Positions 6,225-6,569 of a stretch of 64,000 bases of DNA are shown here, one piece after another. The notes below the pieces were generated by a model. It saw nothing but the letters and a program-made list of their open reading frames with translations, did not search any database and was not told the origin of the DNA. The stretch is from the NCBI RefSeq assembly GCF_053078305.1, contig NZ_CP166879.1, one strand, 5' to 3'. Every line of letters begins with the position of its first letter. Within the stretch, counting starts at the first letter, position 1. A program made the position numbers and the translations under genes.

Positions 6225-6569
6225 TTACTTTAATAATTTCAGTGCCTTTACATCAACTTCAACACTGCTCAGGTCTTTATCAATTTCACCCTCAATTCTT
6301 ACTTTGTCTTTCGGAGAAACATTCTGCCCGGCCCATACGCTGTCATCAATATCCGTGACAATTGTCCCGCTATTGTCACGAAACTCATAACGTTCATCAC
6401 CCACTTTTTTAATGATGCTCCCTTCAAGGATAACCCATGCATCATCCTTCAGTTCTTTTGCCTGCGCTACTGTTGAACGCTCTGCTTCAGGCCCCTGGAA
6501 ACCACCCTGCTGTGCAAAAACGCCAAAAGACACACCGGAAATAAGTGCTGCAATCAATACCTTTTTCAT
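6225..6569 (-). CDS. YgiW/YdeI-family periplasmic OB-fold protein, prophage-borne copy
   Basis: 114-aa ORF with signal peptide MKKVLIAALISGVSFGVFAQQGGFQGP and a DDAWV...GxIxK core like E. coli YgiW. Confidence 0.85.
   Translation of the reverse strand: MKKVLIAALISGVSFGVFAQQGGFQGPEAERSTVAQAKELKDDAWVILEGSIIKKVGDERYEFRDNSGTIVTDIDDSVWAGQNVSPKDKVRIEGEIDKDLSSVEVDVKALKLLK

What the first reader, a model, noticed from the sequence alone, without database searches (positions are those of the whole stretch)
6225..6569. YgiW/YdeI-family periplasmic protein carried as a moron in the nin region
Gene order hok, then this gene, then a small ORF, DUF968, rusA and Q matches the Qin arrangement hokD-rem-ydfU-quuQ except for this extra secreted OB-fold gene. 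Chromosomal YgiW/YdeI proteins are linked to envelope stress and peptide resistance, so this looks like lysogenic-conversion cargo rather than a phage function.
Basis: partly seen in the sequence, partly recalled or inferred. Interest (0 to 1): 0.4.

Follow-up and report, generated by a model that had tools for sequence, protein, structure and literature searches.

The report
Prophage YgiW-like gene riding on hok
The flagged gene is a real, already-annotated periplasmic YgiW-type stress protein, common in Shiga-toxin E. coli prophages, and it always sits directly behind a hok/sok toxin-antitoxin locus, probably on the same transcript, so it is ordinary cargo packaged in an unusual way.

Summary
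The ORF at 6225-6569 (- strand) is real. It encodes 114 aa with a Sec signal peptide and one OB-fold domain. It matches BOF/PF04076 (E 3e-33) and is 53% identical to E. coli YgiW (PDB 1NNX), but only 38% identical to YdeI. The gene is not new. A 97%-identical copy is L0136 of Stx2 phage 933W, annotated in that GenBank record as YgiW/YdeI-like. About 10% of complete E. coli genomes (547 of 5,426) carry it.

The stated gene order is correct, but the Qin comparison is only partly right. BOF plus a 90-aa ORF replace rem, and that small ORF is not Rem.

The new point is linkage. The gene always lies 55-57 nt after the 3' fbi element of a hok mRNA. The intrinsic terminator that ends hokD in Qin is missing there, and the first terminator follows BOF. 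The ~840-980 bp hok/sok-BOF cassette occurs in four settings: nin regions, the attR arm of 933W-type phages, a chromosomal site and an IncY plasmid.

I therefore read it as accessory cargo, probably transcribed from the hok promoter rather than a self-contained moron. Its function (envelope-stress tolerance) is inferred only. Interest is low to moderate.

The parts
7022..7050 (-). Putative hok promoter: TTTGCG (7050-7045), 17-nt spacer, TAGAAT (7027-7022), giving a start at G7015
   Evidence: Read directly from the sequence. The homologous position in L014 was picked up by the promoter scan as TTGCGA-17-TAAAAT. The chromosomal copy of the cassette starts to match at 7062, just upstream of this site.
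6841..7015 (-). hok mRNA 5' leader, holding the tac element GGGUGCUUGAGG at 7015-7004 and the Sok target
   Evidence: Rfam RF01794 gives 117.7 bits against a gathering score of 59, E 9.5e-28, full-length match. The fold pairs nt 1-12 with the fbi element in both the MFE and centroid structures, z = -6.07.
6895..6965 (+). sok antisense RNA (approximate position, placed by homology)
   Evidence: Mapped from the annotated sokW of 933W (AF125520 58664-58734) through the 93.5% alignment of the two cassettes. sokW was shown to act as an antitoxin in PMC8621323.
6691..6903 (-). mok (70 codons), with hok (51 codons, 6691-6846) nested inside it
   Evidence: Pfam HOK_GEF 8.4e-23. PHROG 251 MokW-like. 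The layout is the same as mokW/hokW in 933W.
6627..6639 (-). fbi element CCUCAACGCACCC, the normal 3' end region of hok mRNA. Homology with Qin hokD stops at 6617.
   Evidence: Alignment A2, BLAST against Qin and the fold. In Qin the terminator AACCCGCTTCGGCGGGTTTTT follows directly. Here it is absent.
6570..6626 (-). 57-nt hok-BOF junction holding the BOF Shine-Dalgarno sequence (GAGG 6580-6577). It has no terminator and no consensus promoter.
   Evidence: The best promoter candidate is only 8 of 12 (TTTACC-16-TGtTTGAAT), lacks the A at -11, and is not conserved in the variant cassettes. The spacing of 55-57 nt is invariant in 44 of 44 viral contigs.
6225..6569 (-). BOF/YgiW-type gene, 114 aa. 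Signal peptide is residues 1-19 (6569-6513); the OB-fold domain is about residues 31-114.
6178..6209 (-). Intrinsic terminator: stem CCCGTC/GACGGG followed by UUUUCUGUUUGU. It is the first terminator downstream of the hok promoter and marks the left edge of the cassette shared with 933W.
   Evidence: Terminator scan, sequence, and the 933W homology ending at 6178.
5830..6102 (-). 90-aa ORF of unknown function (PHROG 1212). It travels with DUF968, is not part of the cassette, and is not Rem.
   Evidence: A homologous small ORF is annotated in front of DUF968 in L002, L003, L009 and L014.

Best explanation
The ORF encodes a Sec-exported periplasmic protein of about 95 residues with a single OB fold. 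It belongs to the YgiW branch of the BOF family and is a shortened form that has lost one of the two GGFxGP linker repeats.

It is the distal gene of a compact hok/sok-BOF cassette spanning about 7062 to 6178. In ordinary hok loci such as hokD of Qin, an intrinsic terminator follows the 3' fbi element directly. In this cassette that position holds a 57-nt leader with a Shine-Dalgarno sequence and the BOF ORF, and the terminator comes only after BOF.

The most likely mechanism has four steps.
(1) In the lysogen the hok promoter makes a transcript of about 830 nt running from 7015 to about 6185 (inferred).
(2) mok/hok stay silenced by Sok and by tac-fbi folding, while BOF is translated from its own ribosome-binding site and exported (inferred).
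(3) After induction, anti-terminated PR transcription through the nin region raises expression of both genes (inferred from gene orientation).
(4) In the periplasm the protein acts like YgiW, VisP, SipA and YdeI. These bind cationic peptides, porins or OmpA, or peptidoglycan, and raise tolerance to peroxide, cadmium and antimicrobial peptides (by homology only).

The cassette moves as one unit and is accessory cargo of lambdoid prophages, not a core phage function.
For: Family identity rests.

Cassette structure. A hok leader with a functional-looking tac-fbi fold is present. The Qin hokD terminator sits directly after fbi, but it is absent in the window, 933W, an O157 nin copy, the chromosomal variant and the 82% variant. 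The only terminator on the - strand in 5700-7300 lies after BOF. There is no conserved sigma-70 promoter in the junction.

A 58%-identical, 128-aa BOF in another lambdoid nin region (L014) lies behind a Hok of visibly different sequence. It has the same fbi element, again no terminator before BOF, and a near-copy of the hokD terminator (AAACCCGCTTAGGCGGGTTTTTT) directly after BOF.

Linkage. 547 genomes carry BOF and 549 carry hok+BOF. In 44 of 44 IMG/VR loci the fbi element ends 55-57 nt before the ATG.

Mobility as a unit. The cassette is found in nin regions (515 genomes) and in the 933W attR arm (108 genomes). It also sits in a chromosomal ccp/cybC-mrp-metG site, where homology runs from 7062 to 6225, from just upstream of the putative hok promoter to the stop codon, and in an IncY plasmid between IS1 and IS5.

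Selection and origin. dN/dS is 0.17-0.24. GC is 43% against 50-54% in the flanks.

Expression. The 933W orthologue Z1498 (A0A4P8BAV1) was detected by mass spectrometry in EDL933 supernatants.

Family function comes from PMC6370654 and PMC5636140.
Against: No transcript mapping exists, so co-transcription is inferred from missing signals. The promoter scan is crude, and a promoter that depends on an activator would be invisible to it. A weak candidate with an extended -10 does exist (TTTACC-16-TGtTTGAAT).

The canonical hok model needs slow 3' trimming of fbi, and a 430-nt 3' extension fits that model awkwardly.

Z1498 in supernatants came together with 933W proteins Z1480 and Z1483 and with Stx2B. 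It may therefore come from spontaneously induced cells rather than from stable lysogens.

No phenotype has ever been tested for the phage form, and it lacks a linker segment that chromosomal YgiW has. E. coli has no LpxO, so the VisP mechanism cannot simply be transferred.
Confidence: 0.6

Rival explanations
1. Classical moron. BOF has its own promoter in or overlapping the 57-nt junction, probably one that needs an envelope-stress activator, as QseBC does for chromosomal ygiW. It is expressed independently of hok. The constant adjacency to hok would then only reflect where recombination joints fall.
For: The gene has its own Shine-Dalgarno sequence and terminator and an atypical GC content. 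A weak extended -10 candidate exists at 6622-6595. Chromosomal relatives are controlled by two-component systems. A second E. coli prophage BOF, P0036, sits alone after the tail-fibre genes with no hok.
Against: The candidate promoter scores only 8 of 12, lacks the A at -11, and is not conserved in the 82-85% variant cassettes. The hok terminator is missing in every copy, and in L014 it reappears after BOF. The chromosomal copy matches the window from just upstream of the putative hok promoter through the BOF stop codon.
Confidence: 0.2
2. Lytic-cycle function. The gene serves the phage, not the lysogen. It is switched on together with Hok after induction and modulates the envelope, for example lysis timing, tolerance of Hok damage until assembly finishes, or porin-linked exclusion.
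For: In both prophage contexts the cassette points the same way as early transcription. In this window that is PR through the nin region. In 933W it is PL through int and att after circularisation. HokW rises after mitomycin C. Deleting hokW-sokW delays growth arrest and halves phage release (PMC8621323). That deletion left a kanamycin cassette between the hok promoter and BOF, and no complementation is reported, so part of the phenotype could be a polar effect on BOF (the cassette orientation is my inference from the primer design).
Against: Most hokD-type loci lack BOF: 4,720 genomes match hok but only 549 carry the full cassette. The cassette also persists at a non-prophage chromosomal site and on a plasmid. 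All characterised relatives are host stress proteins.
Confidence: 0.15
3. Passenger. BOF gives no benefit to host or phage and persists only because it is embedded in an addictive toxin-antitoxin unit that resists deletion.
For: BOF is linked to hok in every copy examined. No phenotype is known for it.
Against: dN/dS is 0.17-0.24 with dS up to 0.55, and the ORF is intact across variants as divergent as 58%. A useless ORF should have decayed over that distance.
Confidence: 0.05

Closest known systems
L0136 of Stx2 phage 933W, also H0152/ECs1244 of VT2-Sakai/Sp5 and Z1498 of EDL933
   Same: The protein is 97% identical and also 114 aa, and the hokW/sokW-BOF cassette is the same (93.5% DNA identity over 976 bp). 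The GenBank record already annotates it as similar to YgiW and YdeI.
   Different: The location differs. In 933W the cassette lies after the tail genes near attR, on the strand opposite to the late genes. Here it lies in the nin region between DUF551 and DUF968. The nin setting is the commoner one (515 against 108 genomes).
Chromosomal YgiW (VisP), E. coli and Salmonella, PDB 1NNX
   Same: Both are BOF-family OB-fold proteins with a signal peptide. Identity is 53% over the domain, and the model superposes on 1NNX with TM 0.90. YgiW-type proteins protect against H2O2 and Cd, and family members are reported to bind porins or OmpA, peptidoglycan or antimicrobial peptides.
   Different: The phage form is 16 residues shorter and lacks one GGFxGP repeat of the linker. 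It is not next to qseBC and sits behind hok in mobile DNA. No phenotype has been tested.
YdeI/OmdA
   Same: Same Pfam family and a periplasmic location. YdeI is linked to polymyxin resistance through porin interaction.
   Different: Identity is only 38%. The YdeI equivalog model scores 65.6 bits against a cut-off of 179. The gene is not a YdeI orthologue.
hokD (relF) locus of the Qin prophage
   Same: The hok region is homologous (92% over window 6617-6860), with the same tac/fbi architecture and the same position upstream of a DUF968 gene and Q.
   Different: In Qin the hok transcript ends at an intrinsic terminator directly after fbi, and rem follows with its own promoter-like site. Here that terminator and rem are replaced by BOF, its terminator and the 90-aa ORF.
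Lambdoid morons such as bor and lom
   Same: An accessory envelope-directed gene of atypical GC content, with its own terminator, that is present or absent between otherwise similar prophages.
   Different: No promoter of its own can be identified. It seems to borrow the promoter of a type I toxin-antitoxin locus.

Membership tests
BOF family (Pfam PF04076; NCBIfam NF033674 / TIGR00156) | Profile match above the curated cut-off | tested here: met
   PF04076 gives 114.4 bits against 25.8. NF033674 gives 135.5 against 35, and TIGR00156 gives 112 against 108.15.
BOF family (Pfam PF04076; NCBIfam NF033674 / TIGR00156) | Single OB-fold domain like the one in 1NNX | tested here: met
   phmmer against 1nnx gives E 4.6e-29. 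The AF2 model has pLDDT above 90 for residues 31-114, and Foldseek ranks 1nnx first with TMt 0.90.
BOF family (Pfam PF04076; NCBIfam NF033674 / TIGR00156) | N-terminal signal peptide and periplasmic location | tested here: met
   The sequence MKKVLIAALISGVSFGVFA|QQ has a basic n-region, a hydrophobic core and V-F-A before the cleavage site. The 933W orthologue was scored SPI by SignalP and found in the extracellular/periplasmic proteome. Actual localisation was not measured here.
BOF family (Pfam PF04076; NCBIfam NF033674 / TIGR00156) | Stress-tolerance phenotype (H2O2, Cd, cationic peptides) | not testable with these tools
   This is known for YgiW, SipA and YdeI only.
YdeI orthologue (NCBIfam NF007471 equivalog) | Score above the equivalog cut-off | tested here: not met
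   65.6 bits against 179, and 38% identity.
YgiW orthologue (chromosomal, linked to qseBC) | Orthologous locus and full-length linker | tested here: not met
   The context is a prophage or hok locus in every copy examined. Identity is 53%, and the linker has a 14-16 residue deletion.
Moron (independent transcription unit inserted in a phage genome) | Present or absent between otherwise homologous phage regions | tested here: met
   Qin has rem in this slot. 515 genomes have the BOF-DUF968 junction, against about 2,785 that match only the DUF968 start.
Moron (independent transcription unit inserted in a phage genome) | Own terminator | tested here: met
   A stem-loop with a U-tract lies at 6209-6178.
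Moron (independent transcription unit inserted in a phage genome) | Own promoter | tested here: inconclusive
   No match of 9 of 12 or better lies between hok and BOF. The best candidate is 8 of 12 and is not conserved. The upstream hok terminator is missing.
Moron (independent transcription unit inserted in a phage genome) | Expressed from the repressed prophage | not testable with these tools
   There is only indirect evidence: Z1498 was detected by MS in non-induced EDL933 cultures, together with phage proteins.
hok/sok type I toxin-antitoxin locus (for the cassette) | Hok/Gef toxin ORF nested in mok | tested here: met
   PF01848 at 8.4e-23. A 70-codon mok with a 51-codon hok, as in 933W.
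hok/sok type I toxin-antitoxin locus (for the cassette) | Conserved leader/Sok target and tac-fbi long-range pairing | tested here: met
   RF01794 gives 117.7 bits. Nucleotides 1-12 pair with 6639-6627 in both the MFE and centroid folds, z = -6.07.
hok/sok type I toxin-antitoxin locus (for the cassette) | Transcript ends just after fbi | tested here: not met
   The terminator present in Qin is absent here and in all BOF cassettes. In L014 it lies after BOF.

The most novel reading that the evidence does not exclude
BOF is not just cargo but a working third component of this hok/sok variant. It would be a periplasmic partner, co-transcribed with Hok, that tunes Hok-mediated membrane damage or lysis timing. 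If so, part of the phenotype ascribed to hokW-sokW, and the joint ygiW_2 + mok-like GWAS signal for HUS, would reflect BOF activity rather than mere linkage to Stx2a phages.
Probability: 0.08. Interest if true: 0.6.

Novelty: already known. Interest (0 to 1): 0.27.

Why it matters
The gene itself is routine annotation in STEC genomes, so the finding as written adds little.

Two things are worth passing on.

First, BOF appears to be embedded in the hok transcription unit. That bears on published work. The hokW-sokW deletion study did not consider a downstream gene (PMC8621323). A 2025 GWAS reported 'ygiW_2' and a 'mokC-like' gene as a synergistic pair associated with haemolytic uraemic syndrome (PMC11950266). 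The passages read do not mention that these would be adjacent genes of one cassette, one version of which sits in 933W-type Stx2a phages. Linkage to the toxin phage is therefore the simplest explanation for that signal.

Second, it is an example of a cargo gene borrowing the promoter, and possibly the deletion resistance, of a type I toxin-antitoxin locus. If confirmed, that would be a small but tidy addition to how phage accessory genes are packaged.

Tried and rejected
- **Rem homology.** The 90-aa ORF shows no similarity to Qin Rem, and DNA homology with Qin is confined to DUF968 and hok. The description 'Qin order plus one extra gene' is rejected.
- **YdeI orthology.** Rejected on the equivalog score and on identity.
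- **Own sigma-70 promoter.** The tool scan found none, and a relaxed scan found only a non-conserved 8 of 12 site. By eye I also looked for sigma-E, PhoP, CpxR and PmrA-type boxes. Only partial matches appeared, and they are not conserved in the variant cassettes, so I did not pursue them.
- **Anti-phage defence role.** There were no PADLOC hits for BOF, the 90-aa ORF, hok or DUF968.
- **Literature by locus tag.** ECs1244/ECs1245 gave nothing. Z1497-Z1499 gave one proteomics paper. A search for NirD gave nothing useful on the meaning of that family name.
- **Plasmids as a major reservoir.** Only 7 PLSDB records hold the full cassette. By size (50-63 kb, or 1.4 Mb), several may be excised phages or mis-assemblies, though I did not check this. 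One IncY plasmid was examined and does carry the cassette.
- **Distant viral relatives.** The IMG/VR scan returned only relatives of 83-100% identity. Weak hits in Salmonella, Pseudomonas and Acinetobacter records of the phage collection were not followed up.

Full report

Yes. The ORF at 6225..6569 on the - strand starts with ATG and encodes 114 aa. It matches Pfam BOF (PF04076) at E 3e-33. It matches NCBIfam NF033674 'NirD/YgiW/YdeI family stress tolerance protein' at E 8e-40 and just passes TIGR00156. It matches the solved structure of E. coli YgiW, 1NNX, at E 4.6e-29.

An AlphaFold model is confident over residues 31-114 (pLDDT above 90). It shows a five-stranded OB fold, and its best PDB match is 1NNX with TM 0.90. 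Residues 1-19 (MKKVLIAALISGVSFGVFA) read as a Sec signal peptide.

- DUF551, 7137-7490
- mok/hok, 6691-6903
- the BOF gene
- a 90-aa ORF, 5830-6102
- DUF968, 4779-5861
- RusA, 4407-4766
- Q, 3721-4416

**2. Which family member is it?**

It belongs to the YgiW branch. It is 53% identical to K-12 YgiW and 38% identical to K-12 YdeI, and it fails the YdeI equivalog cut-off with 65.6 bits against 179.

The database search shows a tight 113-115 aa group from E. coli at 81-97% identity, then a gap down to 50-65% for YgiW-type proteins of 127-140 aa. The named members of that second group come from Pantoea, Cronobacter, Enterobacter and Erwinia. The short form lacks 14-16 linker residues, including one of the two GGFxGP repeats.

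Deep pairwise comparisons give dN/dS of 0.17-0.24 with dS up to 0.55, so the protein is under purifying selection. PHROGs lists it as family 1230, 'unknown function'.

**3. It is already known and common.**

A 97%-identical protein is L0136 of Stx2 phage 933W. The same gene is H0152/ECs1244 of VT2-Sakai/Sp5.

Forty-five phage records hold it at 95% protein identity or more. Of 5,426 complete E. coli genomes, 547 carry it at 95% DNA identity or more, in 648 places, and the sampled rows are largely O157, O145, O103, O111 and O121 strains. The exact protein of this window is on record from about 1,000 contigs.

**4. Correction to the Qin comparison.**

Against K-12 Qin, DNA homology covers only DUF968/ydfU (window 4779-5840, 82%) and hok (window 6617-6860, 92%). 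The stretch between them (5841-6616), holding BOF and the 90-aa ORF, replaces the Qin segment that holds rem. The 90-aa ORF shows no similarity to Rem. Qin also has no rusA between ydfU and quuQ. So this is a variable slot with alternative contents, not the Qin order plus one extra gene.

**5. The gene is part of a hok cassette.**

The hok locus is complete:
- The Rfam hok-leader/sok model matches 7015-6841 at 117.7 bits.
- G7015 begins the conserved 5' sequence GGGUGCUUGAGG (tac).
- A plausible promoter lies upstream, TTTGCG-17-TAGAAT at 7050-7022.
- The fold pairs the 5' end with CCUCAACGCACCC (fbi, 6639-6627) in both the MFE and centroid structures, z = -6.07.

In Qin, an intrinsic terminator (AACCCGCTTCGGCGGGTTTTTGTTTTT) follows fbi directly, and rem then has its own promoter-like site. 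That terminator is missing in all five BOF-carrying cassettes I aligned. These were the window, 933W, an O157:H7 nin copy, a chromosomal variant and an 82% variant. In each, fbi is followed by a short leader (57 nt in the window) with a good Shine-Dalgarno sequence and then the BOF ATG.

The only terminator on that strand between 7300 and 5700 is the one after BOF, at 6209-6178. No sigma-70-like site reaches the scan threshold between hok and BOF. A relaxed scan finds only TTTACC-16-TGtTTGAAT, which scores 8 of 12, lacks the A at -11, and is not conserved in the variant cassettes.

A more distant case supports the same picture. In locus L014, another lambdoid nin region, a 128-aa BOF that is 58% identical follows a Hok of visibly different sequence. 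The fbi motif is the same, and there is no terminator before BOF. A near-copy of the Qin hokD terminator (AAACCCGCTTAGGCGGGTTTTTT) lies directly after BOF. BOF therefore sits inside the hok transcription unit, between fbi and the terminator. Co-transcription as an RNA of about 830 nt is my inference. It has not been shown.

**6. Linkage and mobility.**

BOF occurs in 547 genomes and the 838-bp hok+BOF segment in 549. In 44 of 44 IMG/VR loci with enough upstream sequence, fbi ends 55-57 nt before the BOF ATG. The reverse does not hold: hokD-type sequence alone matches in 4,720 genomes.

The cassette occurs in four settings:
- **nin regions like this one.** 515 genomes, with examples.
- **The attR arm of 933W-type Stx phages.** 108 genomes. 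The shared segment is window 6178-7153, ending exactly after the terminator's U-tract.
- **A chromosomal site between ccp/cybC and mrp-metG.** Homology runs from 7062 to 6225, from just upstream of the putative hok promoter to the BOF stop codon. A similar CCCGTC/GACGGG hairpin follows.
- **An IncY plasmid**, between IS1 and IS5.

BOF has 43% GC (GC3 38%) against 50-54% for its neighbours.

**7. Is it cargo or a phage function?**

Cargo is the better reading. The gene is present in only a minority of genomes with a DUF968-type nin region. It survives outside prophages. A second BOF paralogue, P0036 (130 aa, 55% identical), sits as a lone gene after J-lom-stf-tfa at the right end of another E. 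coli prophage. That suggests BOF genes have been captured by prophages more than once.

Characterised relatives are host envelope-stress proteins. YgiW and SipA protect against H2O2 and Cd, and each complements a mutant of the other. SipA binds antimicrobial peptides and OmpA. YgiW and YdeI are reported to bind OmpF and OmpD. VisP binds peptidoglycan and inhibits LpxO, which E. coli lacks (PMC6370654, PMC5636140).

The 933W protein Z1498 (UniProt A0A4P8BAV1, identical to L0136) was detected by mass spectrometry in EDL933 supernatants and scored SPI by SignalP (PMC12962677). However, 933W proteins Z1480 and Z1483 and Stx2B were detected too, so the signal may come from spontaneously induced cells.

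A phage-side role is not excluded. In this window the cassette points the same way as PR-nin transcription. In 933W it points the same way as PL read-through across att after circularisation. HokW is induced by mitomycin C and aids phage release (PMC8621323).

**8. Consequences for published work.**

The hokW-sokW deletion in that study left a kanamycin cassette between the hok promoter and BOF. I found no mention of complementation or of the downstream gene. From the primer design I infer that the cassette points away from BOF, so a polar effect on BOF is possible.

An Irish case-control GWAS reported that 'ygiW_2' together with 'group_5720' (mokC-like) was associated with HUS, with an adjusted OR of about 5.4, and called for work on how the two genes interact (PMC11950266). 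These most likely correspond to the two genes of this cassette, one version of which sits in 933W-type Stx2a phages. Linkage to the toxin phage is the simplest explanation.

**9. Verdict.**

The added value is the hok-BOF cassette architecture. Function remains inferred from homologues.

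Noticed in passing
window 790-3161: Downstream of Q the layout is that of an Stx phage: a DNA methylase at 2103-3161, then three tRNAs (CAU, called Met by ARAGORN but annotated as Ile in the homologous region of strain 2012EL-2448, then Arg, Arg) at 1811-2062. The stx position, however, holds a 311-aa N6-methyltransferase-like gene (790-1725). In a close relative this gene is annotated as a type I R-M subunit M, and it has a weak PADLOC mad2 hit.
   Followed up: partly
window 18720-20806: The prophage integrase (18720-19739) is followed by a 3' fragment of a tRNA-Ser gene (about 19885-19946, from the anticodon arm to the CCA end) and then yccA (20147-20806). I read the fragment by eye as serT-like. 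The prophage therefore sits at what looks like the serT-yccA site. The rest of the window (rlmI, helD, yccS, uup, rlmL, a fimbrial usher, pepN, pncB) is ordinary E. coli-type chromosome.
   Followed up: partly
L014 4509-5466 (Logan ERR10093472): A second, much more divergent hok-BOF pair lies in a lambdoid nin region. The BOF is 128 aa and 58% identical, and the Hok sequence is visibly different. A hokD-type terminator lies after BOF instead of after fbi. The host species was not determined.
   Followed up: partly
L006-L008 (E. coli TPA assemblies), e.g. L008 1814-2690: The hok-BOF cassette (BOF 81% identical) sits at a non-prophage chromosomal site between a cytochrome c peroxidase/cybC pair and mrp-metG. 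No copy in the 80-90% identity band was seen among the 5,426 complete RefSeq E. coli genomes, so the lineage that carries it is unclear.
   Followed up: partly
L019 4001-4393 (E. coli GCA_050626215.1): A different BOF paralogue (P0036, 130 aa, 55% identical) sits alone after J-lom-stf-tfa at the right end of a lambda-like prophage next to yodB/zinT. It has no hok. The simple scan found no promoter upstream of it on its own strand and no terminator in the region.
   Followed up: partly
L068 4973-5599 (IncY plasmid NZ_CP091840.1): The hok-BOF cassette lies on a 90-kb IncY plasmid, bracketed by IS1 and IS5. The BOF ORF there is annotated at 354 bp and abuts IS1.
   Followed up: no
window 15995-18433: An 812-aa early-left-operon protein combines an exonuclease VIII (RecE-like) N-terminal region with a C-terminal Rv2179c-like 3'-5' exoribonuclease domain.
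   Followed up: no
Literature: PMC11950266 and PMC8621323: A HUS GWAS treats 'ygiW_2' and a 'mokC-like' gene as a synergistic pair, and the passages read do not mention that they would be neighbours in one cassette. The hokW-sokW deletion study left a kanamycin cassette upstream of the BOF gene, and I found no complementation reported.
   Followed up: partly
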